A stretch of DNA of 64,000 nt from an uncultured Bacteroidales bacterium (GTDB lineage: Bacteria > Bacteroidota > Bacteroidia > Bacteroidales > Bacteroidaceae): positions 23,310-87,309 of the forward strand of contig CACZAN010000033.1 of the NCBI GenBank assembly GCA_902779165.1, read 5' to 3'. The stretch's first letter is position 1. Each line of letters starts with the position of its first letter. A program made the translations under genes and the position numbers. The notes beneath the pieces are model-generated. The model ran no database searches, was not told the origin of the DNA, and saw nothing but the letters and a program-made list of their open reading frames with translations. Positions 27,606 to 40,397 of this stretch are shown piece after piece.

Positions 27606-28930
27606 TGAGACGCCTGTTGCTGTTTGCCCTCATCTTATCGTCTGTGTTTCAGGCTCCTGCTCAGGAGCCCGACGGTGCTGTGCTGCCTTCCGACAGCCTC
27701 CTGCGCCGCAGCCTGCAGGAGCAGTTAGGCGTGGAGTTCACGGCAAACAACAGCGTGGTGCTGTTGCACACTGGTGCCCAAAAGTTCGATGCGCTGTTCT
27801 CGGCAATCCGTCAGGCGCGCCACTTCATTCATCTGGAATATTTCAACTTTCGCAACGATTCCATCGGAATGGCGCTGTTCGACTTGCTCGGGCTGAAAGC
27901 CAAGGAGGGAGTGGAAGTCCGCGCACTTTACGACAGCTTCGGTAACAGCAGCAACGACAGCCCCTTGAAGAACAAACACTTGCGGACCATCCGTCAAACG
28001 GGCGTACTGGTGGAGGAATACGATCCCATCAAGTTCCCGTGGGTCAATCACGCCTTTCACCGCGACCACCGCAAGATTGTGATCATAGACGGCGCCGTCT
28101 GTTACGCCGGTGGTATGAATGTGGCAGACTATTACATCCACGGCAAGCCTCAGTTCGGTGAGTGGCGGGATATGCACATGGAAATGACGGGCGATGTCGT
28201 GGCGCAGTATGAGGCCATATTTGCAAGGATGTGGTGGCAGCAGACGGGCGAAATCCTGCTCAACGAGATTTATGCGCCGCAGGCTGCCACGCCTTCGGAG
28301 TACAGTGCCAAGTTCCTTCCTGTAGTCCGTCCGGCTAATGATTTCCAGTTGCTTACAGACACCACCCCCTCAGCTGGAAAGAAACTTATTGGCGTGGTAG
28401 ACCGCAGACCTCATGAGGCATCGAAGTATATGAGGCAGGCTTACGTCGCTGCCATCGATGCCGCTCAGGACAGCATCCAGATTGTCAACCCCTATCCCAC
28501 GAATGTAAAGAGCGTCCGCAAAGCGCTGCGCAGGGCGCTGGAACGGGGCGTGAAGGTACAGATCATGGTTTCGGCGAAGAGCGATGTGCCCATTACTCCC
28601 GACGTGGTGGCATTGGAAATGAAGAAGTTGGCAAAGCGCGGAGCCGAAGTGCTCTATAACCAGACCGGCTTCCATCATTCCAAGGTGATGATGGTCGACG
28701 GGCGCTTCTGCACGATTGGCAGCACGAACCTCGACGGCCGCAGCTTCTTATGCGACTACGAAGTGAACAGCTTCATCCTCGACACCTGCACCACCCACCA
28801 GCTGCAGCAGCTCTTCGAGGCCGACCGCCGCCAGTGTACGCCGTTCCGTGCAGAGGATTACCGCAAGCTGTATAACTTCGGCCACCGCCTGACAGGACAT
28901 TTCTTCTCCCTCTTCCGCCGATTCTTCTGA
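27602..28930 (+). CDS. cls: Phospholipase D-family protein, cardiolipin synthase-like
   Basis: Two HKD motifs (HRKIVIIDG, HHSKVMMVDG) and an N-terminal signal/anchor. The last ~63 bp are duplicated at 29700-29762. Confidence 0.75.
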   Translation: MMRRLLLFALILSSVFQAPAQEPDGAVLPSDSLLRRSLQEQLGVEFTANNSVVLLHTGAQKFDALFSAIRQARHFIHLEYFNFRNDSIGMALFDLLGLKAKEGVEVRALYDSFGNSSNDSPLKNKHLRTIRQTGVLVEEYDPIKFPWVNHAFHRDHRKIVIIDGAVCYAGGMNVADYYIHGKPQFGEWRDMHMEMTGDVVAQYEAIFARMWWQQTGEILLNEIYAPQAATPSEYSAKFLPVVRPANDFQLLTDTTPSAGKKLIGVVDRRPHEASKYMRQAYVAAIDAAQDSIQIVNPYPTNVKSVRKALRRALERGVKVQIMVSAKSDVPITPDVVALEMKKLAKRGAEVLYNQTGFHHSKVMMVDGRFCTIGSTNLDGRSFLCDYEVNSFILDTCTTHQLQQLFEADRRQCTPFRAEDYRKLYNFGHRLTGHFFSLFRRFF

Positions 28931-28979
28931 CGCCCAACCCACCTCTTCTCCCAGTCTCATTCAACATAAAATAAAAACT

Positions 28980-29208
28980 TCAAGTTTCGCAAAGTGATGC
29001 CGTAGGCATCAGACAATGGTAGCCAGCCATTTCAATGGCTGGTAATGAGGATGTTGACGGATAGCGTGCCGTAGGTACGCGACAGGGATTACCAGCCATT
29101 GAAATGGCTGGCTACCATTGTCACGCCCCGCTGGGGCTTTGTATCACAGCTGGTTCTTCGAAGAGTCGAAGCGAACAAAGTTCGAGCGAGCATACTAGCA
29201 AAACTTGA
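28980..29208 (+). mobile_element. MITE-like nested-palindrome element, family 2, copy A (carries a ~35 bp internal insertion)
   Basis: Termini caagtttcg...cgaaacttg-like. Internal long stem gacaatggtagccagccatttcaatggctgg / ccagccattgaaatggctggctaccattgtc. Small palindromes gatgccgtaggcatc and gccccgctggggc. Confidence 0.8.
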
Positions 29209-29216
29209 ATAAAAAC

Positions 29217-29322
29217 TTTTTCTCAAAAATCCCCCGAATCCACCGATAATTCCCTCTGAAAACAGGTCTCAACAGACAAAACAAGGGCTTCAATCGGTGG
29301 ATTCGGGGGATTTTTGAGAAAA
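29217..29322. repeat. Perfect 30-bp inverted repeat with a 45-nt spacer
   Basis: ttttctcaaaaatcccccgaatccaccgat (29217-29247, endpoints hand-counted) pairs with atcggtggattcgggggatttttgagaaaa (29293-29322). Confidence 0.85.
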
Positions 29323-29358
29323 AATAATTAAATGAACACACCATAAATGCATTCGAAA

Positions 29359-29548
29359 CCCGTCACGTCTTCCGCTGTAATCCGTCACGTCCTCCGCTGT
29401 AATCCGTCACGTCTTCCGCTGTAATCCGTTACGTCTTCCGCTGTAATCCGTCACGCCTTCCGCAAAAGTACGTCACGGCCTCTGCCTATATACGTCCCGT
29501 CCCTCACGTCCATACGTCTCGTCCCTCACGTCTATATGTCTCCACGAG
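29359..29548 (-). repeat. Iteron-like ~22 bp array, inverted homologue of 8855-9014
   Basis: ccgtcacgtcttccgctgtaat occurs about five times, followed by acgtcccgtccctcacgtccat-type units. Confidence 0.8.
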
Positions 29549-29591
29549 TCTCACTAATGAGACAACCGCCTATAAGGGGATGAGTTGAACA

Positions 29592-29703
29592 AACTATACT
29601 TACTTCGACAAGTAACTATACTTCCACGCACGACCGAGTACTACTTCCACGCACGACCGAGTACTACTTCCCTGCACGACCGAGTACTACTTCCCCGTGC
29701 AGT
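29592..29703 (+). repeat. Tandem array of ~22-24 bp units (actacttccacgcacgaccgagt)
   Basis: There are about five units, three of them nearly perfect. The array abuts the duplicated cls 3' end. Confidence 0.8.
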
Positions 29704-29762
29704 ATAACCTCGGCCACCGCCAGACGGGACATTTCTTCTCCCTCTTCCGCCGGCTCTTCTGA
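29700..29762 (+). repeat. Displaced duplicate of the last ~63 bp of cls (compare 28868-28930), including the TGA stop
   Basis: By-eye alignment gives about 57 of 63 identical positions in direct orientation. Confidence 0.85.
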
Positions 29763-29923
29763 CAAATTCTGTGGCGTAGGGGGCATGTCAGCCAATAATC
29801 ATCTAATTATTTGAAACAGCTCGCCGACTTAGAGGGCGTGAGCCCCACCTCTTAGCCCCCTTTATATAGAGGGGGTCTTAGAGGGGGGCTGAGCCCGCTG
29901 ATATGACTAAGGGTGTAGGAAAA

Positions 29924-30000
29924 AAGATGCAGATATTATCGACATAAGATGCGAATCTTATTCCGAAAAGATCCTAATCCTATCGCCATAAGAACCTAAC
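29924..30000 (+). repeat. Degenerate ~22 bp tandem array (aagatgcNaatNttatc...)
   Basis: Three to four imperfect units run into MITE copy B. Confidence 0.5.
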
Positions 30001-30221
30001 TCAAGTTTCGATAGTATGCTAACCAGCTGTAATACAAAGCCCCAGCGGGGCGTGACAATGGTAGCCAGCCGTTTCAACGGCTGGTATATAGCGGCCAGGA
30101 AAAAGCGTGCCTTTAGGTATCGCGTACCTACGGCACGCTATACGTCAACATCCTCATTACCAGCCATTGAAATGGCTGGCTACCATTGTCTGATGCCTAC
30201 GGCATCACTTGCGAAACTTCA
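30001..30221 (-). mobile_element. MITE-like element, family 2, copy B (inverted relative to A, C and D)
   Basis: Reverse complement of the same consensus. It underlies the spurious ORF 30016..30387. Confidence 0.8.
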
Positions 30222-30335
30222 AAACCTAATCTTATTTGCAGCCCGAATAGGCGAAAATCGCCTGCAAAATTCACTTAGAGAGAGAATAATAACCACTTTT
30301 CTCCCTCTTTTTTTCTTCCTTTCGGAAAAAAGCAT

Positions 30336-30600: not shown

Positions 30601-32112
30601 ATGGCAAAAAAACAGACGAATACGACCTCAATAGGTTTTGAGGATGCGATATGGCGGGCAGCGGATAAGCTGCGCGGCAACCTGAATGCTTCGGAGTACG
30701 AAGGGGTGGTGCTGGGATTGATTTTCCTAAAGTACATCAGCGACAAGTTCGAGGCGAAGTACACGGAGTTGCTGCAGGAGCCCGATGCAGACGTAGAAGA
30801 CAAGGACGAGTACGAAGCCGACAACGTGTTCTTCGTTCCTCAAGACGCCCGCTGGCAGGTGATCAGCCTGGCGGCACACACGCCGCAAATCGGCAAGGTC
30901 ATCGACGATGCCTTGGAAGCCATAGAGCGGGAGAACCCGAAGCTGCGGGGTGTGCTCCCCTCTAATTATGCCCGCCCGGAATTGGATAAGCGGCGCTTGG
31001 GCGACGTGGTAGATCTCTTCACGAATATCCACATGCTGGCCTCCGGCGACGAACGGGACCTGCTGGGGCGCGTCTATGAATACTGCCTGCAGAAGTTCGC
31101 TTCGATGGAGGGCAAGAACGCCGGCGAATTCTACACCCCCAGCTGCATTGTCCGCACCATCGTAGAAATCCTGCAGCCCTACGAAGGCCGCGTCTATGAC
31201 CCCTGCTGCGGTTCGGGCGGTATGTTTGTGCAGAGCGCCAAGTTTATCTACAACCATCAGAAGGACATCAACAACATCAGCGTCTATGGTCAGGAGGCGA
31301 ACCCCTCGACGTGGAAGATGGCCCACATGAACGTTGCCATCCGAGGTCTGGAGGCCAACCTCGGCAAGTCGTATGCCGACACGTTCTTCAACGACCAGCA
31401 CCCCACGTTGAAGGCCGACTTCATCATGGCGAATCCGCCTTTCAACCTCAGCGACTGGGGCGCAGACAAACTGGAGAAAGACGTCCGTTGGAAGTTTGGT
31501 CTGCCGCCTGCCGGCAATGCGAACTTCGCCTGGATGCAGCACATGATTCACCACCTCTCGCCCACTGGCCGTATTGGCCTGGTATTAGCGAATGGTGCGC
31601 TCAGCTCTCAGACGGGCGGCGAGGGCGTGATCCGTCAGAAGATTGTGGAGGCCGACTTGGTGGAAGGTATCATCGCCTTGCCCTCGCAGCTGTTCTACAG
31701 CACGGGCATTCCCGTCTCTCTCTGGTTCCTCTCTCGCAACAAACAGCAGGCTGGCAAGACGCTGTTCATTGACGCTCGCAATATGGGAACAATGGTGACC
31801 CGCGCCGTGCGTGAGTTGATGGCGGAGGATATCCAGAAGATTGCCGAAACCTTCGACCAGTTCCGCAACGGCACCCTTGAAGATGAGAAAGGTTTCTGCG
31901 CCGTCCGTTCCCTCGAAGACATCGCCGCGCAAGATTTCATCCTCACTCCAGGCCGCTATGTAGGCATCGCCGAGCAGGAAGATGACGGCGAGCCCTTTGC
32001 CGAGAAGATGCAGCGCCTGACCTCAGAACTGAGTGGACTCTTTAAGGAGAGCCACCGACTGGAGGAGGAGATCAGGAAGCAACTCGGTAGCATAGGATTT
32101 GAAATCAAGTAA
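30601..32112 (+). CDS. hsdM: Type I restriction-modification system, DNA methyltransferase subunit M
   Basis: I trimmed the start to the ATG at 30601. HsdM N-terminal domain (FEDAIWRAADKLRG), AdoMet motif DPCCGSGG and catalytic NPPF. Confidence 0.9.
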   Translation: MAKKQTNTTSIGFEDAIWRAADKLRGNLNASEYEGVVLGLIFLKYISDKFEAKYTELLQEPDADVEDKDEYEADNVFFVPQDARWQVISLAAHTPQIGKVIDDALEAIERENPKLRGVLPSNYARPELDKRRLGDVVDLFTNIHMLASGDERDLLGRVYEYCLQKFASMEGKNAGEFYTPSCIVRTIVEILQPYEGRVYDPCCGSGGMFVQSAKFIYNHQKDINNISVYGQEANPSTWKMAHMNVAIRGLEANLGKSYADTFFNDQHPTLKADFIMANPPFNLSDWGADKLEKDVRWKFGLPPAGNANFAWMQHMIHHLSPTGRIGLVLANGALSSQTGGEGVIRQKIVEADLVEGIIALPSQLFYSTGIPVSLWFLSRNKQQAGKTLFIDARNMGTMVTRAVRELMAEDIQKIAETFDQFRNGTLEDEKGFCAVRSLEDIAAQDFILTPGRYVGIAEQEDDGEPFAEKMQRLTSELSGLFKESHRLEEEIRKQLGSIGFEIK

Positions 32113-32116
32113 GGTT

Positions 32117-32698
32117 ATGGAAGAGAACAAAAATACAACAATATTGGCTGAACAGCAGAATAAAGTACTGTTTCAGGATGTTTGTCTGATTATAGATCAA
32201 GCTCAAGCCTACGCTTACCGTTTGGTCAACGAAACGCTGATAAAGCGTAACTGGCTGCTGGGGATGCGCATTCAGCATGATGTACTGCAAGGACAGCGCG
32301 CAGAATATGGAGAACAGACCATTCGAAGATTAGCTGTTCAATTAATAGAAAAGTATGGTGATAGCTTTAGTCGGAGAAACCTGTATTACTATTTAGATTT
32401 CTACAAGTCATTCCCAAACTTTTTCCACGCAGTGAGCGGAAAATCTATTGAAAAACAAATTGTGAACACAGCGCGTTCACAATCTGGAGACAATCTAAAA
32501 AACATTTTGAACTCACTGCGTGCAAAATCTCCAATTAAACTTTCATGGACCCATTACCGTATTATTTTACAGGAGAATACGGAAAGAGGCAGAGTGTGGT
32601 ATGAGCAGGAGGCTGCGCGCGAAATGTGGAGTACACGTACTTTGCCGCTAAGTACCTTACATATATGCCTACAAAAGAGGAACTGCGTCGAGAGATAG
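32117..32698 (+). pseudogene. YhcG/DUF1016 PDDEXK-nuclease remnant (N-terminal domain only; nuclease core deleted, C-terminal tail in another frame)
   Basis: The DUF1016_N-like segment ends at ...YEQEAAREMWSTRTL. The typical tail YMPTKEELRREIEQQKEFF follows out of frame (about 32650-32741). Confidence 0.65.
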
Positions 32699-32784
32699 AA
32701 CAGCAGAAAGAATTCTTCCGTCTGCAACATAAGGAGGATTGACTTTGGAATAGTGGAAGGAATATAAACAGATTTTTCTCATTT

Positions 32785-33303
32785 ATGGAAGAGAACAAGA
32801 ATATAGAAAAAGTGGATGTGCTTTTTGAAAAAGTAGCAAAACTCATTGTTCAGTCCCGCCAAAGAGTGGCTTCTGCGATTAATCTGGCAGAGGTGTATAC
32901 CAAATACCGCATTGGACAATATATCGTGGAGTATGAGCAACGAGGTAATGTTCGAGCCGAATATGGTAAGCAAGTTCTAAGAGATTTGTCTGCAAGACTA
33001 ACACAACGATTTGGAGAGGGATGGTCTTATCCTTCAATGAAAAATATTAGGCAATTCTATCAGGTATATTCCGAAAAGCTAAACGGTGTTTATCCTATCG
33101 ATGATGAAAAGGCTAAACAGCGTTTAGCCAATTCTGATATTATAAGCATAACACAAAATGATGCGTTGGTGGAGTTGACTTTGCCAAAAGAAGCGAATAT
33201 CTATGCCACAGCCTATCAACTCTATTTGCCGGATAAAGCTTTGCTTCAGGCAAAAGTGAAAGAGTGGATTGAAGAGTTTAACGAAAAAGAACAGGAAGAA
33301 TGA
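32785..33303 (+). CDS. Second YhcG/DUF1016 derivative: N-terminal domain fused in frame to the family C-terminal tail, nuclease core missing
   Basis: N-terminal segment RVASAINLAEVYTKYRIGQYIVEYEQRGNVRAEYGKQVLRDLSARL is followed by ...YQLYLPDKALL. An ATGA overlap links it to hsdS. Confidence 0.6.
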   Translation: MEENKNIEKVDVLFEKVAKLIVQSRQRVASAINLAEVYTKYRIGQYIVEYEQRGNVRAEYGKQVLRDLSARLTQRFGEGWSYPSMKNIRQFYQVYSEKLNGVYPIDDEKAKQRLANSDIISITQNDALVELTLPKEANIYATAYQLYLPDKALLQAKVKEWIEEFNEKEQEE

Positions 33304-34463
33304 TGGAAGAGTGGAAGGAATATAAAATAAAGGATGCGACGTCTATTTTGGGTGACGGTATTCACGGAACCCCTAAATATGATGAAGGAGGCTCTGTGTA
33401 TTTCATTAATGGTAACAATCTTGAAAATGGAAAAATTGTTATTCGTGAAAACACAAGACGAGTATCTTTAGTAGAAGCATTAAAACATCAAAAACCACTT
33501 ACAGATAGGACTATCTTTGTATCCATCAATGGTACACTTGGTAATGTTGCCAGATACAATGGTGAGCCGTGTATACTAGGAAAGAGCGCTTGTTATTTCA
33601 ATGTAAAGGAAGAATTTGATGTAAACTTCATGTATTATGTTGTGGCGAATAGCAAATTCCGAAAGGAAATAGAAAGACTTGCTACAGGAACAACCATAAA
33701 AAATGTGTCGTTAGAAACAATGCGCAACTATACATTCTTCGCGCCCTCTTTGTTAGAACAGAAGAAAGTAGCTGCCATCCTCTCCTCCCTCGATGATAAA
33801 ATCGAGTTGAATCGTCGCATCAATGAGAATTTGGAGGCTCAAGCTCAGGCTTTGTTCAAGTCGTGGTTGTCCGGATGTCATTCAGAAGTAACGATTGGCG
33901 AATTATCCATGAATATAACAGACTATACAAAATGTGATCTGCCTAAGGTTGTACTTGTAAACAGCAGCGATGTTACAGAGGGGCATTTTGAACATCACAA
34001 TTATTCAGAAAACAAAAACCTCAAAGGACATTTCAAGAAAAGATTTCAAAAGGGATACATCTTGTATTCTCAGGTGCGTCCCAGAAATCGACATTGGGGT
34101 TATTGCAATTTTGATGCTGATGCTTATCTTGCTTCAACTCAGTTAATGGTTATCAGAAATCGTGCTGAATTAATATCAAGTATTTTACTTTATCAATATC
34201 TAATAGATGATGAAGTTTGGATGGATTTTACAAATAAGACAGAGACACGTTCAGGAACGTTTCCACAAGGTAACTATGAAGAAATAGCAGCTATAAAAGT
34301 TCGTTTCGGAACTGATATAGCTCAAATTACTAATGAATTGGAGAGTATGTATGCACTGATATACAATAATGAGCAAGAATCCCACCGTCTCGCGGCCCTT
34401 CGCGACACCCTTTTGCCTCGCTTGATGTCAGGTGAAATAAAAGTAGGTGATGTGACGTTATAA
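33300..34463 (+). CDS. hsdS: Type I R-M specificity subunit S (two target-recognition domains)
   Basis: Conserved central and C-terminal coiled regions (LEQKKVAAILSSLDDKIELNRRINENLEAQAQALFKSW; RLAALRDTLLPRLMSGEI). The gene is AT-rich relative to its flanks. Confidence 0.85.
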   Translation: MMEEWKEYKIKDATSILGDGIHGTPKYDEGGSVYFINGNNLENGKIVIRENTRRVSLVEALKHQKPLTDRTIFVSINGTLGNVARYNGEPCILGKSACYFNVKEEFDVNFMYYVVANSKFRKEIERLATGTTIKNVSLETMRNYTFFAPSLLEQKKVAAILSSLDDKIELNRRINENLEAQAQALFKSWLSGCHSEVTIGELSMNITDYTKCDLPKVVLVNSSDVTEGHFEHHNYSENKNLKGHFKKRFQKGYILYSQVRPRNRHWGYCNFDADAYLASTQLMVIRNRAELISSILLYQYLIDDEVWMDFTNKTETRSGTFPQGNYEEIAAIKVRFGTDIAQITNELESMYALIYNNEQESHRLAALRDTLLPRLMSGEIKVGDVTL

Positions 34464-34481
34464 TATAAAGGTGTATTTGGT

Positions 34482-35489
34482 ATGGCAGAGAAAGAGAATA
34501 AATTGATCTTGTATCAAGATGCTGAAGGACAAGTGAACGTGAATGTTCGCTTTGCCGATGAAGATGTGTGGCTGACACGCGAGCACCTTGCAGAGATTTA
34601 TGCGACCACCCCTCAGAATATCAGCCTTCACGTTGGCAACATTTATCAAGACAAGGAATTGGAGGAAGATGGAACTCGAAAGAAATTCTTTCTAGTTCGT
34701 CAAGAGGGTAAGCGGCAGGTGCAAAGAGAAATCGACCATTACAATTTGGACATGATTATCGCCTTGGGCTATCGCGTGCAGTCACCTATAGCTGTGCGTT
34801 TCCGTCGTTGGGCTACTCAGCGGCTGCACGAATACATCCAGAAGGGTTTCACGATGGACGACGAGCGTCTGAAGCAGGGCGGCAACCGCTATTTCAGGGA
34901 GTTGCTGCAGCGCATTCGCGACATCCGCAGCAGTGAACGCAATTTCTACCAGCAAGTGACGGATATCTATGCCACCAGCATTGACTATGACCCTCGTGCA
35001 CATATTACAAAGCTGTTCTTTGCCACCGTGCAGAACAAGATGCACTATGCCGTGCATGAGCATACCGCAGCAGAACTGATCTATGAGCGTGTGGACAACG
35101 AGAAGCCCTTCGTAGGGATGACCAACTTCAAAGGGAACTACGTAACACGCGATGACGTGAAAATTGCCAAGAACTACCTGACAGAAATAGAGCTGCAACG
35201 CTTGAACCTGCTCACTTCACAGTTCCTTGACTATGCTGAGTTTCAGGCTCTGGAACAAAACCCCATGAGGATGGCCGACTGGATTGCTGCGCTCGATGAT
35301 CAGATACTCCGTTTGCGCAAGAACATCCTCGAAGGCAGCGGCACCATCTCCCATCAAGAGGCTATTGAGAAGGCCGAACGGGAATTTGAAATCTACCGCG
35401 AGCGGGAGATGCGCCTGCTGGAAAGCGATTTCGACAGAGCCGTCAAGCGACTGCGAGATAAAGGCGAGGGACATGATGAAGATGCCTGA
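34482..35489 (+). CDS. rhuM: RhuM-family (virulence protein RhuM-like) protein
   Basis: Strong family resemblance along the full length (LILYQDAEGQVNVNVRF..., IIALGYRVQSPIAVRFRRWATQRL, SERNFYQQVTDIY). Confidence 0.8.
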   Translation: MAEKENKLILYQDAEGQVNVNVRFADEDVWLTREHLAEIYATTPQNISLHVGNIYQDKELEEDGTRKKFFLVRQEGKRQVQREIDHYNLDMIIALGYRVQSPIAVRFRRWATQRLHEYIQKGFTMDDERLKQGGNRYFRELLQRIRDIRSSERNFYQQVTDIYATSIDYDPRAHITKLFFATVQNKMHYAVHEHTAAELIYERVDNEKPFVGMTNFKGNYVTRDDVKIAKNYLTEIELQRLNLLTSQFLDYAEFQALEQNPMRMADWIAALDDQILRLRKNILEGSGTISHQEAIEKAEREFEIYREREMRLLESDFDRAVKRLRDKGEGHDEDA

Positions 35490-35532
35490 TGCCGGGTGAA
35501 CTGAAAGTAAATGAAGTTGAAAATATTGTGAT

Positions 35533-36705
35533 ATGAACGAAAAACAAACATATTTGGATTTCGACGAGTATATCCGTCAAGGAGAGCCTGCACAACAGGA
35601 AAAGGCAGGCTATTGGCAGACGGCTATTGGACTTCAGGCTGTAGATGGCTTGAAAGTGTCTGATTATCTGCAAGATACGGCCCGTAAGCACATTGAGGGT
35701 GACATTACCATCGACGAGGCTCGTGAACTGGTTAACCAGTATTATATCACCAAGACCGCCCACGATGCTCACGATGATGATAAGGAAGAAGCCGACCGTG
35801 TGTCGTCGAACATCGTCAAGGTGCTGTCCAGTCATACTTTCGACTTCACCACAGGCGGCTATCAGTCTGTACATCGACGTGTATTCGAGGGCGTGATGAA
35901 ACATGCGGGTGAATTCCGCACCTACGACATCACCAAGAAGGAGTGGGTGTTGGAGGGTGACACGGTACGCTATCTGAACTGGGAGGATCTGCGCCGCGCC
36001 ATCGACTACGATCTGGAGCAGGAGCGCAACTTCAGCTATAAAGGGCTGAGTAGTGACGAAATCGTTGTCCATGTTTCCAAATTCACATCTGGCCTTTGGC
36101 AGATACACGCCTTCGGCGAAGGCAATACACGCACAACAGCTGTCTTTGTGATTCTGTATCTGCGTTCTATTGGATTTGATGTGGAGAATGACCTATTTGC
36201 GAAGCACTCTTGGTATTTCCGAAATGCTTTGGTGAGAGCCAACTACAAGAATGTTCGTAATGGTATTGATTATACCCCAATCTATCTGGAACGTTTCTTT
36301 CGGAATCTTCTGCTGGGTGAACAATGGGATTTACGTAACCGCTACCTGCATATCCACCCGGCGGCGGAATGGTGTGAGCAACCGAATTTGATTTCAGGAC
36401 AGGCACCCGACAAGCAACCCGACAAGCAACCCGACAAGTCACATGACAAGTTCAGCACCAAAAGCCAATACATCAGACAATTGGTAATCATTCTCGGAGA
36501 CAAAGAAATGTCTGTAAGAGAAATGCTTAACGGATTAGGGTTGAAAGACCGAGAGAGTTTCATGGATGTTTACCTCAACCCTTCAATGAAGGGAAGATTT
36601 GTACGCCTTCTTTATCCGAACTCTCCTCGCCATCCCCGTCAAAAGTATCTCCTGACCGTTAAAGGTTTGGCACTGTATCATGAACTGAAAAAGGAACTAT
36701 CATGA
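35533..36705 (+). CDS. Fic/Fido-domain protein with a VbhA-like N-terminal segment and a C-terminal winged-helix; non-canonical Fic motif
   Basis: The Fic motif reads HAFGEGNTRTTA against the canonical HxFx(D/E)GNGRxxR. There is a PDKQPDKQPDKS repeat linker and a C-terminal wHTH (MSVREMLNGLGLKDRESFMDVYLNP...QKYLLT). The stop overlaps the hsdR ATG (ATGA). Confidence 0.8.
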   Translation: MNEKQTYLDFDEYIRQGEPAQQEKAGYWQTAIGLQAVDGLKVSDYLQDTARKHIEGDITIDEARELVNQYYITKTAHDAHDDDKEEADRVSSNIVKVLSSHTFDFTTGGYQSVHRRVFEGVMKHAGEFRTYDITKKEWVLEGDTVRYLNWEDLRRAIDYDLEQERNFSYKGLSSDEIVVHVSKFTSGLWQIHAFGEGNTRTTAVFVILYLRSIGFDVENDLFAKHSWYFRNALVRANYKNVRNGIDYTPIYLERFFRNLLLGEQWDLRNRYLHIHPAAEWCEQPNLISGQAPDKQPDKQPDKSHDKFSTKSQYIRQLVIILGDKEMSVREMLNGLGLKDRESFMDVYLNPSMKGRFVRLLYPNSPRHPRQKYLLTVKGLALYHELKKELS

Positions 36706-39700
36706 CCGACAACTTTACAGAGAACGACTACGAGCAGGCGTTGATAGCGCTGTTCCAGAAACTGGGCTACGACTACGAGTGCGGCTACGACGTGGAGCGT
36801 GACTTCCGTAGCCCTTACTAGGAGGACTTGAGGCTGGCGCTGCGCAAGCAGAACCCACGGCTCAGTGAAGGGGTGCTGCAAGAGGCTTTCCGACTGGTGA
36901 CACACATCCACGAAGGAACGCTGGAGCAGCGCAACGAGACGCTGACGGACTACCTGCAAAACGGCGTGGAGGTGAAGTACTCGGAGGACGGGCGCCCGAA
37001 GACGGCACTGGTGAAGCTGGCAGACTTCGACCATCCGCAAAGGAATGGCTTCAAGGTCTGCAACCAGTGGACGGTGGTAGAACACGAGAAGATCCGCTGC
37101 GACCTGGTGGTGTTCGTGAACGGCCTGCCGCTGGTGGTGGTTGAACTGAAATCGCCCACCCGTGAAGAGGCCACGGAAGAGGATGCCTACCTGCAAATCA
37201 AGCAGTATCAGCAGAAATGCCCCTCGCTGTTTGTCTATAATGCCTTCAGCGTGACAAGCGATATGCTGACCACCAGGGTGGGCACCATCACCTCGAAGTC
37301 CAACCGCTATATGGAATGGAAGAGCAAGGACGGGAGCGTGGAGACCCGTGAGATTGCCGACTACGAAACGCCCTTCCTGGGTATCTTCGAGAAAGCGCGG
37401 CTGATGGATATCCTGCAGAACTTCATCTGCTTTGACCACAAGGACGGGCGGACGGCGAAGATTATGGGAGCCTACCACCAGTACTTTGCCGTCGGGAAAG
37501 CGGTAGCAAAGACGCATACCGCCGTTGGTGGCAATGGAAAGATTGGTGTGTTCTGGCACACGCAAGGCTCAGGAAAGAGTCTCTCGATGGTGTTCTATGT
37601 CCACCGGCTGATACAGGAGTTCCCGCAATGCACCATCGTGGTGGTGACCGACCGCAACGACCTCGACCAGCAGCTGTATGAGCAGTTTGCAGGGTGCCAG
37701 CGGTTCCTGCGTCAGGAGCCGCAGCGCGTGGGCTTCGAGCTGAACGAGAAAGGCAAGCTGACGAAGACCGCAGGGCGCGAAGACCTGGTGCGGAAGCTGA
37801 AAGACCTGCAGACGGGCGGAATCATCTTCACCACCATACAAAAGTTCGAGGAGGGCACGGGTCTGCTTTCGGAAAGAGAGAACATCATCGTCATCACGGA
37901 CGAGGCCCACCGCTCGCAATACGGCGATGAGCACTGGGACGTGAAGGCAGAGAAGATGAAGAAGGGCTTTGCGCTGCTGATGCGCGAGGCACTGCCCCGC
38001 GCCTCGTTCATTGGTTTCACGGGAACGCCTATTTCCGACCGCGACCGCGACACACAGGAGGTCTTCGGGGACTATATCGACATCTATGACATGACGCAGG
38101 CCGTAGCGGACGGAGCCACGAAGCCTGTGTACTACGAGAGCCGAGTCGTCAAACTGAACCTGAACGAAGAGGCGCTGCGCAAGCTGGACGAGGAGTTCGA
38201 CCGACTGGCAGACGAGGGGGCTACGGAAGAGCAGATAGACAAAGCCCGCCGCGACAACAGCGGACTGAAAGAGATACTGTGCCACCCAGACACCATAGAC
38301 AGCCTGTGCCGCGACATCGTGGAGCACTACGAGCAAAACCGCCAGTACGAACTGACGGGCAAGGCGATGATCGTGGCCTACAACAAAGAGGCAGCCGTGA
38401 AGATCTACCGTAAGCTGCTGGAGCTGCGACCCGCGTGGCAGGAGAAGGTGCACGTGGTGGCGAGTGCCGCCAATACGGACAAGGAAGAGTGGCACGACGT
38501 GATCGACGCCCGGCGCAACAAGGAATATGCCGCCCTGTTCAAGGACGACAGCAGTCCCATGAAGATAGCCATCGTCGTGGATATGTGGCTGACGGGATTC
38601 GATGTGCCGTCGCTGGCTACGATGTATGTCTTCAAACCCATGAGAGACCACAACCTGATGCAGGCCATAGCGCGCGTGAACCGCGTGTTCCCGGAAAAGG
38701 AAGGCGGCCTGATAGTGGATTATGTGGGCATTGCACAGGCGTTGAAGAAAGCCATGCAGGACTACACCAGCCGCGACCGCCAACAGTTCGGCGACCCGGA
38801 TATCAGCAAGACGGCACTGGTGAAGTTCCAGGAGAAGCTGGAGATCTGCCGCGACCTGCTGCACGGCTTCGACTACGAAGGCTGGTACGAAGGCAGCGAC
38901 CCCGAAAGGAGCCAACTCATCAAGGGCGGTGTGAACTTCATGCTGGAGGCGCAGAAGCAGGAGCGCCGCAAGGACTTCATCAACGAAAGCCAGCTGCTGC
39001 ACAACGCCCAGACGCTGTGTAAGTCGCTGATTCCGCAGCGCGTGAAACAGGAAGTGGCTTTCATTGATGCCGTGAGGGTGATGCTGCAAAGGCTTTCGAC
39101 TACAGGAACGGCAATCACCAAGCACGACATCAATGAGCGCATCTCGCACCTGCTGGAACAGAGCATACAGAGTCAGGGCGTGGAAGTACTGACACCCAAT
39201 ATTGAATTCTCGCTGTTCAGCGAAAGCTTCCTGGCCGAGCTGAAGAAGATGAAGGAGAGGAACCTGGCAGTGAAGATATTGGAAAACCTGCTGAGGAACC
39301 GCATCCGAAACTACGAGCGCACCAACATCGTGCAGAGCCTGAAGTTCAGCAAGATGATGAACGACGCCCTGTCGAACTACCTGAAAGGGTTGCTGACCAA
39401 CGAAGAAGTGATTGCCGAACTCCTGAAGATGGCAGCGGAAATCAAGGAGAGCGAAGCTGAGGCCGACGCACTGGGGTTGACTACGGAAGAGAAAGCCTTC
39501 TACGATGCGCTCAGCTCGCCCGAAGGCGTCAGGGACGCTTATACAAACGATGAGTTCCTGGCGCTGACGAAGGAACTGACGGAACAGCTGCGCCGCAACC
39601 GCACCATAGACTGGAACCACAAGGACTCTGCCCGCGCAAAGATGCGAGTGATGGTGAAGCGGCTGCTGAAGAAATACCACTACCCGCCCGAAGGGCAGGA

Positions 39701-39878
39701 ACAGGCGCTGAGGACGGTGATGGAGCAGTGCAACCGCTGGGCTGACGACGAGGAGAATCTGGAAACGCCCGTAGTTCCTCTGCATTCGATTCGCTACGAT
39801 GATTATTCGGTCGAAGAAGATGGCGGCTACCTGATGGCGGCAGAGAAGGAGGATGATTACGGTCCGTACGATGAATAG
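36702..39878 (+). pseudogene. hsdR: Type I R-M restriction subunit R with an in-frame TAG at codon 40 (36819-36821)
   Basis: MTDNFTENDYEQALIALFQKLGYDYECGYDVERDFRSPY-stop-EDLRLALRKQNP continues in the same frame. The downstream nuclease motif (DLVVFVNGLPLVVVELK) and SF2 helicase motifs (HTQGSGKS, TDEAHRSQ) are intact. Confidence 0.85.
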
Positions 39879-40075: not shown

Positions 40076-40189
40076 TTAGTTATAGGTATTATCCTTGCTT
40101 ATCTGCTCTAAAAATTCGACTATCGTCAAGACATTCAACCTCGGCCATTCAATCTCCTTGAGAATACTGAAATGGGAGTCGTTTGTCAC
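40076..40189 (-). pseudogene. C-terminal remnant of a PIN-domain (VapC-like) toxin
   Basis: The frame reads VTNDSHFSILKEIEWPRLNVLTIVEFLEQI, which resembles the (I/L)VTxDxHF...I.T..EFL end of PIN_3 toxins. No N-terminal part is present. Confidence 0.45.
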
Positions 40190-40397
40190 AATAAGGGGTA
40201 CGCATATGTTCTGCACCCCATTGATTGATTGTATCCTCGTTTATCTCACCCTTTTCCCAAAGATCATCTATGGCTTTCTGGGCTTTCTGGGCAAAATACT
40301 GAGCGATATAATCCCGGAACTCTAACAGTTCCGCTTCGGTTCTAATAGCGTTCACAGCGTTCAGCACTTCCAATTGGGCTAATTGATGATATGACAT
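40149..40397 (-). CDS. Small antitoxin-like protein (82 aa), C-terminus altered by the deletion that removed most of the downstream PIN gene
   Basis: Helical 82-aa ORF with a ...WGAEHMRTPY end, then an aberrant tail. A TAcTTTTG promoter box lies 29 nt upstream. Confidence 0.5.
   Translation of the reverse strand: MSYHQLAQLEVLNAVNAIRTEAELLEFRDYIAQYFAQKAQKAIDDLWEKGEINEDTINQWGAEHMRTPYCDKRLPFQYSQGD

What the first reader, a model, noticed from the sequence alone, without database searches (positions are those of the whole stretch)
30601..39878. Type I R-M operon with four extra genes wedged between its subunits, in a PrrC-like position
The gene order is hsdM, yhcG-remnant, yhcG-derivative, hsdS, rhuM, fic, hsdR, all on one strand. 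Gaps are tiny or overlapping: an ATGA overlap at yhcG2/hsdS and at fic/hsdR, 4 nt between hsdM and yhcG1, and 18 nt between hsdS and rhuM. In the E. coli prr locus the anticodon nuclease PrrC sits between hsdS and hsdR of EcoprrI. The R-M complex keeps it latent, and a phage anti-restriction peptide activates it. RhuM and the Fic protein occupy exactly that position here and appear translationally coupled to hsdR. I infer they could be R-M-guarded abortive-infection or retaliation effectors, not passengers. RhuM has no established biochemical function.
Basis: inference. Interest (0 to 1): 0.75.

Follow-up and report, generated by a model that had tools for sequence, protein, structure and literature searches.

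The report
Restriction operon carrying extra defence genes
A DNA-restriction gene cluster in an uncultured rumen or gut Bacteroidales bacterium carries extra, separately mobile anti-phage candidate genes between its own genes; this pattern is already catalogued, and in this strain the DNA-cutting subunit gene itself is broken.

Summary
Both 'yhcG' ORFs lack the nuclease domain.

The extra genes belong to families already listed as phage-defence candidates because they sit inside type I R-M operons:
- DUF1016 is PADLOC PDC-S02.
- RhuM is PDC-S05.
- This Fic is PDC-S72.

RhuM and Fic/Doc toxins in R-M operons beside PrrC were discussed in 2013. One RhuM-domain gene tested alone protected E. coli B against T7, T5 and T4.

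My censuses show the linkage is recurrent but optional:
- RhuM: 4 embedded and 9 flanking of 76 species loci; 57 had no type I gene within the fetched flanks (up to 10 kb).
- Fic: 9 embedded of 34 well-flanked loci.

Within this species the operon is a mosaic of four layouts, with Fic or a metallophosphoesterase in the same slot. RhuM and Fic each occur without the other, and both stay intact where hsdR is broken.

Best reading: they are independent second-line defence cassettes sharing an operon, not PrrC-like effectors guarded by the R-M complex. This is a new member of a known kind, of low to moderate interest.

The parts
30601..32112 (+). hsdM, type I methyltransferase subunit (503 aa), apparently intact. 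The NPPF and DPCCGSGG motifs are visible in the translation.
   Evidence: Pfam N6_Mtase 2.1e-108 and HsdM_N 1.7e-26. PADLOC MTase_I 2e-209. dN/dS 0.02-0.04 against sister haplotypes.
32117..32698 (+). DUF1016/YhcG N-terminal fragment (193 aa) without the PD-(D/E)xK nuclease domain. Probably a remnant of a PDC-S02 gene.
   Evidence: Pfam DUF1016_N 2.9e-28 only. PADLOC PDC-S02 hit covers profile positions 6-145 of 351. It is 33% identical to the N-terminal part (residues 1-147) of the full 356-aa YhcG in sister haplotypes, and tblastn finds no nuclease-domain remnant.
32785..33303 (+). Second DUF1016_N-only ORF (172 aa). It starts with the same MEENKN codons as the first ORF and overlaps hsdS by ATGA.
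   Evidence: Pfam DUF1016_N 6e-21. It matches the 171-position PADLOC PDC-S02 model PDLC04802 over nearly its whole length. Junction confirmed.
33300..34463 (+). hsdS, specificity subunit (387 aa) with low GC3 (0.33). This allele is only 29-31% identical to the hsdS of sister haplotypes, so it very probably specifies a different recognition sequence.
   Evidence: Pfam Methylase_S 8.8e-23. PADLOC Specificity_I, including a full-length match 2-382. Allele comparison. DNA homology to the other haplotypes resumes only at 34377.
34482..35489 (+). rhuM (335 aa), a PADLOC PDC-S05 defence candidate. It has an N-terminal winged-helix or Bro-N-like domain (about residues 1-100) and a conserved all-helical RhuM core.
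   Evidence: Pfam PF13310 3.5e-106. PDC-S05 1.4e-140. The exact protein was found on 19 contigs. There are 29 synonymous and 0 non-synonymous differences from the B-haplotype allele. AF2 model has pLDDT 61. Bro-N hit is weak, E 0.042.
35533..36705 (+). fic (390 aa), a PADLOC PDC-S72 defence candidate. It has a VbhA-like N-terminal segment, a Fic core with the family-invariant non-canonical motif HAFxEGNTRTTA, and a Fic-like_C winged helix.
   Evidence: Pfam Fic-like_C 3.2e-19, Fic 8.3e-8, VbhA 0.006. PDC-S72 5e-126. PDB matches VbhT 7e-5 and 4rgl 2e-9. Motif invariance shown.
36702..36821 (+). hsdR 5' fragment: 39 codons ending at a premature TAG created by a 3-nt deletion.
   Evidence: Called as a separate 39-aa gene in all A-type contigs.
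36828..39878 (+). Remainder of hsdR (1016 codons from TTG). The nuclease motif, helicase domains and C-terminal domain are intact, but the first 52 positions of the HSDR_N profile are missing.
   Evidence: Pfam HSDR_N (profile 53-197 of 198), SWI2_SNF2, ResIII, T1R_D3-like and T1RH-like_C. TIGR00348 1.7e-168. dN/dS 0.05-0.07 against intact alleles, so there is no sign yet of relaxed constraint.
40149..40397 (-). 82-aa ORF left after an approximately 310-bp deletion. The deletion removed most of a PIN-toxin gene that sister haplotypes carry with its small partner gene just downstream of hsdR.
   Evidence: Alignment breakpoints at window 40188-40193 against L002 15352/15662. Gene tables for haplotypes B and C show PIN (141 aa) plus a 76-aa gene.

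Best explanation
This is a chromosomal type I R-M operon of an uncultured rumen or gut Bacteroidales bacterium. Its PGK cluster-mates are labelled Bacteroidaceae MAGs. The operon acts as a small defence island.

Between the hsd genes sit separately mobile, self-sufficient defence-candidate genes:
- two nuclease-less remnants of a YhcG/DUF1016 gene (PDC-S02) between hsdM and hsdS;
- an intact RhuM (PDC-S05) and an intact non-canonical Fic (PDC-S72) between hsdS and hsdR.

Shown:
- the family assignments;
- the tight same-strand packing;
- the foreign codon composition of the inserts;
- the swapping of whole cassettes between haplotypes, with breakpoints in the conserved ends of hsdM, hsdS, rhuM and hsdR.

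Inferred:
- The genes are co-transcribed with the R-M genes and act as independent second-line defences.
- RhuM probably uses its variable N-terminal winged-helix domain to recognise a phage cue and its conserved helical core as the effector.
- Fic probably modifies a target protein once auto-inhibition is released.
- Embedding gives co-expression and co-transfer, not physical control by the R-M complex.

In this haplotype a 3-nt deletion puts a stop at hsdR codon 40. Restriction is probably lost or weakened, while methylation and the embedded genes are kept.
For: Families: Pfam and PADLOC hits.

Prior knowledge:
- PDCs were defined by embedding in BREX, DISARM and type I R-M loci.
- A RhuM family appears as FAM_00003 in that paper's supplement.
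- RhuM and Doc toxins in R-M neighbourhoods were described in 2013.
- A PDC-S05 gene alone lowered plating of T7 and T5 about 1000-fold and of T4 about 10-fold.

Independence from R-M:
- RhuM census of 76 species loci: 4 embedded, 9 within two genes of a type I gene, 6 with one elsewhere in the fetched flanks (up to 10 kb), 57 with none.
- The Pfam neighbour counts agree.
- Fic census: 9 embedded and 23 with none among 34 loci with at least 3 kb on both sides.
- Of four sampled Fic relatives, two are solitary and two lie just upstream of hsdR.
- RhuM relatives also occur in phages, satellites and plasmids.

Modularity within the species. There are four layouts:
- M-S-RhuM-metallophosphoesterase-R (14 of 22 PGK-anchored contigs);
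- M-YhcG-p141-S-RhuM-metallophosphoesterase-R;
- M-YhcG-p141-S-RhuM(509-bp deletion)-Fic-R;
- the window type, with hsdR broken (6 of 22).

Breakpoints are at window positions 32141, 34377, 35517 and 36729.

Selection: rhuM dS is 0.145 with essentially no amino-acid change between haplotypes.

No terminator-like site lies on the + strand in the intergenic gaps.
Against: - No expression, toxicity or phage data exist for this locus.
- The rhuM and fic dN/dS values are biased, because the compared contigs were retrieved by exact protein identity.
- RhuM has no solved homologue. The model is only moderate (pLDDT 61), and the best fold match (DdrC, E 3e-3, TM 0.2-0.3) is weak. The proposed sensor/effector split is therefore an inference.
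- The Fic motif lacks the second arginine, so its chemistry is uncertain.
- The tested PDC-S05 gene was a different family member.
- ATGA overlaps and the repeated placement of Fic right before hsdR would also fit functional coupling.
- My censuses used simple ORF calling and homology seeds, so they may under-count divergent type I genes.
Confidence: 0.65

Rival explanations
1. PrrC-like guard. RhuM and/or Fic are latent toxins bound and silenced by the type I R-M complex. They are released when a phage anti-restriction protein disables that complex.
For: - The slot is the same as prrC (between hsdS and hsdR), on the same strand, with tight or overlapping junctions.
- Fic relatives repeatedly sit directly upstream of hsdR (L100, L105, L115, L135, L164, L179, L183).
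- RhuM and Doc genes share neighbourhoods with PrrC in other genomes.
- HsdM and HsdS are intact here, so an M2S1 core could still act as the guard.
Against: - Neither protein has PrrC's ABC-ATPase or HEPN domains.
- Most relatives have no type I gene nearby, unlike PrrC.
- A RhuM gene alone defends in a heterologous host.
- hsdR carries a premature stop in this widespread haplotype while both putative toxins stay intact.
- RhuM alleles do not track hsdS alleles: the same RhuM335 is paired with two unrelated hsdS alleles (about 29% identical).
Confidence: 0.1
2. Selfish or decaying passengers. The inserts are toxin-like or addiction-type mobile genes that landed in a recombination-prone operon. 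They give the host no defence benefit and are on their way to loss.
For: - The DUF1016 copies here are truncated.
- rhuM has a 509-bp deletion in haplotype C.
- The neighbouring PIN toxin is deleted in this haplotype.
- hsdR itself is broken.
- The one PDC-S02 representative tested gave no protection against T4, T5 or T7.
- The inserts have foreign codon composition.
Against: - RhuM is intact in 20 of 22 PGK-anchored contigs, with only synonymous change between diverged haplotypes.
- The Fic protein is identical across haplotypes A and C.
- Both families are very large and highly conserved: each search returned the maximum of 8000 scored candidates, all below E 1e-5.
- A family member shows experimental defence.
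Confidence: 0.15
3. Regulatory accessories. RhuM (winged-helix or Bro-N-like DNA binder) and/or Fic control expression or activity of the R-M system itself. Examples would be a controller-protein-like function or restriction alleviation after a specificity change.
For: - The N-terminal domain resembles DNA-binding folds (Bro-N E 0.042, MarR E 0.016; top fold match is the DNA-binding protein DdrC).
- A Gordonia phage homologue is annotated as an HTH DNA-binding protein.
- This haplotype combines a novel hsdS with a broken hsdR.
Against: - All domain similarities are below threshold.
- Most relatives are nowhere near an R-M system.
- The conserved 230-residue C-terminal core is unexplained by a simple regulator.
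- Stand-alone defence has been reported.
Confidence: 0.05

Closest known systems
PADLOC phage-defence candidates PDC-S05 (RhuM), PDC-S72/PDC-S04 (Fic) and PDC-S02 (YhcG/DUF1016), from the 'guilt-by-embedding' study of Payne et al. 2024 (bioRxiv 10.1101/2024.01.29.577857)
   Same: The window proteins match these models strongly: PDC-S05 1.4e-140, PDC-S72 5e-126, PDC-S02 about 1e-35. They sit in exactly the context used to define the candidates, namely inside a type I R-M operon.
   Different: Three candidates are stacked in one operon. The PDC-S02 copies lack the nuclease domain. The host hsdR is interrupted. PDC-S72 has, as far as I found, no experimental test.
E. coli prr locus (EcoprrI hsdM-hsdS-prrC-hsdR), with the latent anticodon nuclease PrrC
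   Same: Extra gene(s) between hsdS and hsdR, on the same strand and tightly packed. Both are thought of as a back-up defence to restriction.
   Different: There is no ABC-ATPase or HEPN anticodon nuclease here. PrrC is almost exclusively R-M-embedded, whereas RhuM and this Fic mostly are not. No evidence exists for masking by the R-M complex, and hsdR is defective here.
R-M neighbourhoods with PrrC-like, Doc and RhuM-like toxins described by Anantharaman et al. 2013 (PMC3710099)
   Same: Same gene families in the same kind of operon. The same hypothesis was already stated there: RhuM as a toxin domain in a multilevel defence programme with R-M. RhuM N-domain-Fic fusions, which they noted, also appear here in L105 as PDC-S23.
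   Different: This locus has no PrrC-like gene. RhuM and Fic are separate genes. hhalign finds no relationship between the RhuM and Fic profiles (probability 0.2%).
VbhT/VbhA-type FicTA toxin-antitoxin modules (class I/II Fic proteins)
   Same: The Fic core aligns with VbhT (E 7e-5). The N-terminal 70 residues resemble the VbhA antitoxin (Pfam E 0.006), which suggests a built-in inhibitory segment.
   Different: The motif is HAFxEGNTRTTA, not HxFx(D/E)GNGRxxR. The inhibitory (S/T)xxxE(G/N) motif is replaced by LQAVDG. An extra Fic-like_C winged helix is present. No separate antitoxin gene is found.

Membership tests
Type I restriction-modification system | HsdM methyltransferase with HsdM_N and N6_Mtase domains | tested here: met
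   Pfam 1.7e-26 and 2.1e-108. PADLOC MTase_I 2e-209.
Type I restriction-modification system | HsdS specificity subunit with two target-recognition halves | tested here: met
   Methylase_S 8.8e-23. Full-length PADLOC Specificity_I match over residues 2-382.
Type I restriction-modification system | Complete HsdR open reading frame (nuclease + helicase + C-terminal domain) | tested here: not met
   All domains are present, but an in-frame TAG lies at 36819-36821, produced by a 3-nt deletion. Whether reinitiation at TTG 36828 yields an active protein cannot be told from sequence.
prr-type guarded effector (PrrC/RloC) | ABC-ATPase N-domain plus HEPN-type anticodon-nuclease C-domain | tested here: not met
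   No such Pfam or PADLOC hit for any of the four inserted ORFs.
prr-type guarded effector (PrrC/RloC) | Family found almost only inside type I R-M operons | tested here: not met
   RhuM: 4 embedded, 9 flanking and 57 with none, of 76 loci. Fic: 9 embedded and 23 with none, of 34 well-flanked loci. The PrrC benchmark comes from Payne et al..
prr-type guarded effector (PrrC/RloC) | Toxin kept latent by the R-M complex and activated by a phage anti-restriction factor | not testable with these tools
   Needs co-purification and toxicity or phage assays. Indirect evidence only: both genes are intact in a haplotype with a broken hsdR.
RhuM family (Pfam PF13310; PADLOC PDC-S05) | Full-length match to the family model | tested here: met
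   PF13310 3.5e-106 over residues 65-309. PDC-S05 1.4e-140 over residues 1-328.
RhuM family (Pfam PF13310; PADLOC PDC-S05) | Anti-phage activity | not testable with these tools
   Reported for one other family member expressed alone in E. coli B. Not tested for this gene.
Fic/Fido AMPylators | Catalytic motif HxFx(D/E)GNGRxxR | tested here: inconclusive
   The window has H192-A-F-G-E-G-N-T-R-T-T-A203. His, Phe, Glu, Gly, Asn and the first Arg are kept. Gly is replaced by Thr and the last Arg by Ala. This variant is invariant across 22 relatives.
Fic/Fido AMPylators | Inhibitory helix motif (S/T)xxxE(G/N) | tested here: not met
   The VbhA-like segment (Pfam E 0.006) reads LQAVDG at the aligned position. 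It is invariant in the family.
YhcG/DUF1016 PD-(D/E)xK nuclease (PADLOC PDC-S02) | N-terminal DUF1016_N domain | tested here: met
   2.9e-28 and 6e-21 for the two ORFs.
YhcG/DUF1016 PD-(D/E)xK nuclease (PADLOC PDC-S02) | C-terminal YhcG_C nuclease domain | tested here: not met
   Absent from both ORFs and from all frames of 32001-33400. Present in the 356-aa YhcG of haplotypes B and C.

The most novel reading that the evidence does not exclude
The operon is kept mainly as a scaffold for its embedded effectors. On this reading, RhuM and/or Fic are functionally tied to the HsdM/HsdS methyltransferase core and fire when phage anti-restriction proteins hit it. RhuM's swappable approximately 60-residue winged-helix cassette would act as a specificity module, much like the target-recognition domains of HsdS. 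The widespread hsdR-null haplotype with both effectors intact would then be a natural restriction-less, retaliation-only form of a type I system.
Probability: 0.1. Interest if true: 0.65.

Novelty: new member of a known kind. Interest (0 to 1): 0.3.

Why it matters
If the main reading is right, this locus is one more example of 'guilt by embedding', and it adds little that is new in principle.

Its practical value is that one uncultured species offers a natural allelic series at a single chromosomal site:
- hsdR intact or broken;
- RhuM intact or deleted;
- Fic or a metallophosphoesterase in the same slot;
- YhcG whole, decayed or absent;
- two RhuM alleles that differ only in a winged-helix cassette.

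That series would let someone test directly whether RhuM and this untested Fic subfamily (PDC-S72) defend on their own or depend on the R-M subunits. It would also show which part of RhuM senses infection. RhuM remains a very abundant protein family with no known biochemistry.

Tried and rejected
- **RhuM structure.** The first AF2 run on a shallow alignment failed (pLDDT 37). A second run on a broader alignment gave only pLDDT 61. The PDB fold search gave no convincing match: best was DdrC at E 3e-3 with TM 0.2-0.3. I use it only as a weak hint of a winged-helix plus helical-bundle layout.\n- **RhuM against PDB by sequence.** Nothing was found even with a 60-sequence profile.\n- **RhuM as a divergent Fic.** hhalign probability was 0.2%, so I rejected this. 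A local 35%-identical stretch (RhuM 121-199 against Fic 213-280) is not significant.\n- **An apparent 261-aa truncated RhuM in the commonest haplotype.** This was a gene-calling artefact; the DNA is identical to the intact 338-codon allele.\n- **Incompatibility between RhuM and an intact HsdR.** Rejected, because they co-occur in haplotypes H1 and B. The triple of RhuM + Fic + intact hsdR was not seen, but with four haplotypes this means little.\n- **RhuM and Fic as an obligate pair.** Rejected. Haplotype C keeps Fic with rhuM deleted, H1 and B keep RhuM without Fic, and only 1-2 of 80 Fic loci carry RhuM nearby.\n- **First iterative-HMM labelling run.** It timed out and was replaced by multi-seed phmmer and tblastn.\n- **Promoter and terminator scans.** Nothing beyond chance. 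The Bacteroidota-type promoter pattern has no match in or just upstream of the operon.\n- **TAG read as a sense codon.** Rejected. TAG also ends the first DUF1016 ORF and hsdR itself.

Full report
**Observation**

- hsdM 30601-32112
- two DUF1016_N ORFs, 32117-32698 and 32785-33303
- hsdS 33300-34463
- rhuM 34482-35489
- fic 35533-36705
- hsdR from 36702

Pfam and PADLOC confirm every assignment. The junction gaps are 4, 86, -4, 18, 43 and -4 nt, so the quoted ATGA overlaps and the 4-nt and 18-nt gaps are exact.

Two points change the picture.

First, hsdR is interrupted. Translation from ATG 36702 hits TAG at 36819-36821, which is codon 40. Intact alleles from other contigs read CCT TAC TAT GAG GAG GAC where the window reads CCT TAC TAG GAG GAC, a 3-nt deletion. 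Every contig of this haplotype that covers the site carries the lesion, and they come from several independent samples. It is therefore real. The downstream 1016-codon ORF keeps all HsdR domains but lacks the first 52 positions of the HSDR_N profile.

Second, both 'yhcG' ORFs have only the N-terminal DUF1016 domain. No trace of the nuclease domain is found in any frame.

Codon composition separates hsdM and hsdR (GC3 0.75-0.83) from the DUF1016 ORFs and hsdS (0.33-0.42), rhuM (0.60) and fic (0.52).

**Species-level context**

Exact-protein look-ups place this locus between a phospholipase-D-like gene and a TPR/PGK block in many animal-gut/rumen-type metagenome contigs. Cluster-mates of the PGK protein are labelled Bacteroidaceae MAGs.

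I also sampled the site by anchoring on PGK, which does not depend on the embedded genes. That returned 22 contigs. Together with the look-ups, four layouts appear:
- **H1**: hsdM-hsdS-RhuM338-metallophosphoesterase-hsdR (14 of 22).
- **B**: hsdM-YhcG356-p141-hsdS-RhuM335-metallophosphoesterase-hsdR, followed by a PIN toxin and partner gene (seen only in the RhuM look-up).
- **C**: as B, but rhuM has a 509-bp deletion and Fic replaces the metallophosphoesterase (2 of 22).
- **A**: the window type (6 of 22).

A '261-aa RhuM' called in H1 is only a gene-calling difference, because the DNA is identical to the intact allele.

DNA alignment puts the exchange points at window positions 32141, 34377, 35517 and 36729. 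These lie in the first codons of yhcG, the conserved 3' end of hsdS, just after rhuM, and in codon 10 of hsdR. Whole cassettes are therefore swapped by recombination between conserved flanks.

Other features of the haplotypes:
- Haplotype A has also lost most of the PIN toxin gene through an approximately 310-bp deletion.
- rhuM differs between A and B by 29 synonymous and no non-synonymous changes (dS 0.145). These contigs were retrieved by identical protein, which biases the result.
- hsdR of A shows no relaxed constraint yet (dN/dS 0.05-0.07).
- fic is nearly identical between A and C (dS 0.016) although the flanking genes differ about ten-fold more. This points to recent exchange.
- RhuM338 (H1) and RhuM335 (window) are identical except for residues 33-93. 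That is the helix-turn-helix and wing of the N-terminal domain, where identity falls to about one third.

**What is already known**

- PADLOC models PDC-S02, PDC-S05 and PDC-S72 hit the DUF1016 ORFs, RhuM and Fic.
- Payne et al. 2024 defined those candidates from genes embedded in BREX, DISARM and type I R-M loci. They single out PrrC as almost exclusively embedded. A RhuM family appears as FAM_00003 in their supplement.
- Anantharaman et al. 2013 described RhuM-like and Doc/Fic toxins in R-M operons with PrrC. They proposed RhuM as a toxin in a multilevel defence.
- A cold-seep study expressed one PDC-S05 (RhuM-domain) gene alone in E. coli B. Plating of T7 and T5 fell about 1000-fold and of T4 about 10-fold. 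Its PDC-S02 representative gave no protection.

**Census across taxa**

RhuM. A scan of one genome per species returned 80 RhuM loci (49-95% identity) from many phyla. In 76 of them a RhuM gene could be placed among its neighbours.
- Pfam on the two nearest ORFs each side found N6_Mtase in 3+3 proteins, HSDR_N in 3+2 and Methylase_S in 0+3, out of 137+132 proteins. The other neighbours were very mixed.
- Multi-seed homology labelling gave 4 embedded, 9 within two genes of a type I gene, 6 with one elsewhere in the fetched flanks (up to 10 kb) and 57 with none.
- Even relatives 85-95% identical are mostly outside type I operons.
- RhuM relatives also occur in phages, phage satellites and plasmids.

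Fic. A metagenome scan returned 80 loci at 57-75% identity.
- Among the 34 with at least 3 kb on both sides, 9 are embedded between type I genes, 1 has type I genes on one side only, 1 has them only on the other strand, and 23 have none.
- L179 reads hsdM-YhcG-hsdS-Fic-hsdR, and L123 reads hsdM-RhuM-...-Fic-hsdR.
- Of four closer relatives, two sit directly before hsdR and two are solitary.
- One of those operons (L105) also holds ThsB-like TIR genes and a RhuM-N-domain-Fic fusion, which is PDC-S23.

The exact hsdS-rhuM-fic-hsdR order was seen only in this species. Each gene's embedding recurs independently in other taxa but is optional.

**The proteins**

RhuM.
- It has no solved homologue by sequence, even with a 60-sequence profile.
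- hhalign finds no relationship to Fic.
- The better AF2 model (pLDDT 61, pTM 0.43) shows a beta-beta-alpha-alpha-beta-beta N-domain at pLDDT 70-85, followed by an all-helical body.
- The top fold match is the DNA-binding protein DdrC, but with low TM scores.
- Pfam gives sub-threshold Bro-N and MarR hits on the N-domain.
- Across 60 relatives the N-domain is the least conserved part (0.48-0.53) and residues 87-262 the most conserved (0.73-0.80).

Fic.
- Its core aligns with VbhT and its C-terminal domain with 4rgl.
- Its first 70 residues resemble the VbhA antitoxin.
- Its motif HAFxEGNTRTTA lacks the second arginine of the canonical Fic motif, and this variant is invariant across 22 relatives.

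**Interpretation**

The evidence fits an R-M operon used as a landing pad and shared expression unit for independent defence cassettes. It does not fit an obligate PrrC-style partnership, for four reasons:
- Both families are mostly found without type I genes.
- One RhuM gene works alone.
- RhuM and Fic each persist without the other.
- Both are intact where hsdR is broken.

A guard role for the HsdM/HsdS core remains possible but has no positive support; I put it at about 0.1.

Haplotype A combines a very different hsdS allele (29-31% identity) with a null hsdR. This could reflect selection against self-restriction after a specificity swap. That is inference only.

**Verdict**

The PrrC analogy is not supported. 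The locus is a new member of a known, already catalogued kind. Interest is low to moderate, mainly because the natural allelic series could be used to test RhuM and PDC-S72 function.

Noticed in passing
window 28867-30235: The 1.7-kb gap upstream of hsdM is highly structured. A 65-nt copy of the 3' end of the phospholipase-D-like gene (28867-28931) recurs at 29699-29763 (91%). Long inverted repeats at 28992-29082 / 30120-30210 (91 nt, 99%) and 29090-29155 / 30021-30086 (66 nt, 95%) bracket about 865 nt. That stretch holds a 22-nt tandem repeat (about 6 copies, 29335-29510) and a 23-nt repeat (3 copies, 29619-29697). It could be an integration scar, a MITE-like element or an invertible segment. 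All A-type contigs are colinear with the window, so no inversion was seen.
   Followed up: partly
window 40149-40397 (- strand), breakpoint about 40188-40193: An approximately 310-bp deletion relative to haplotypes B and C removes most of a PIN-domain toxin gene downstream of hsdR. It leaves an 82-aa ORF derived from the toxin's small partner gene.
   Followed up: partly
window 34578-34760 (RhuM residues 33-93) against L113 18849-19865 (- strand): Two RhuM alleles in the same species are identical except for a roughly 60-residue cassette covering the helix-turn-helix and wing of the N-terminal domain. Identity there is about one third. This looks like module swapping in a recognition domain.
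   Followed up: partly
L002 11063-11848; also L110, L113 and L114: In most haplotypes the slot occupied by fic in the window holds a 261-aa calcineurin-like metallophosphoesterase, 6 nt upstream of hsdR (Pfam Metallophos 2.3e-7). It has no PADLOC match. It may be an uncatalogued embedded defence candidate.
   Followed up: partly
L020 9629-9952, L031 9629-9952, L027 8312-8635: In three rumen Prevotellaceae/Prevotella MAGs a roughly 107-aa ORF lies directly upstream of rhuM. It resembles the VbhA-like N-terminal 70 residues of the window Fic (56-59% identity; Pfam VbhA E 0.003). The L027 copy has an internal stop. It could be a free-standing antitoxin-like partner or the remnant of a Fic gene.
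   Followed up: partly
L105/L106 938-11819 (Bacteroidaceae MAG GCA_017934435.1): Another type I operon is packed with embedded genes: hsdM, a RhuM-N-domain-Fic fusion (PDC-S23, 1.6e-137), hsdS, a ThsB-like TIR protein, a TPR protein, a second TIR protein (in L106), a PDC-S72 Fic, and hsdR.
   Followed up: partly
window 35533-36705 against flanks: fic differs between haplotypes A and C by only 4 synonymous sites (dS 0.016). hsdM and hsdR differ at dS 0.10-0.14. This suggests recent transfer of the fic segment between haplotypes.
   Followed up: no
window RhuM residues 121-199 and Fic residues 213-280: hhalign reports a local 35%-identical alignment with shared GF..DD, YFR..L.R, IDY.P, FF and H.H.AAE patterns. 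It is not significant (E 0.33, probability 0.2%).
   Followed up: no
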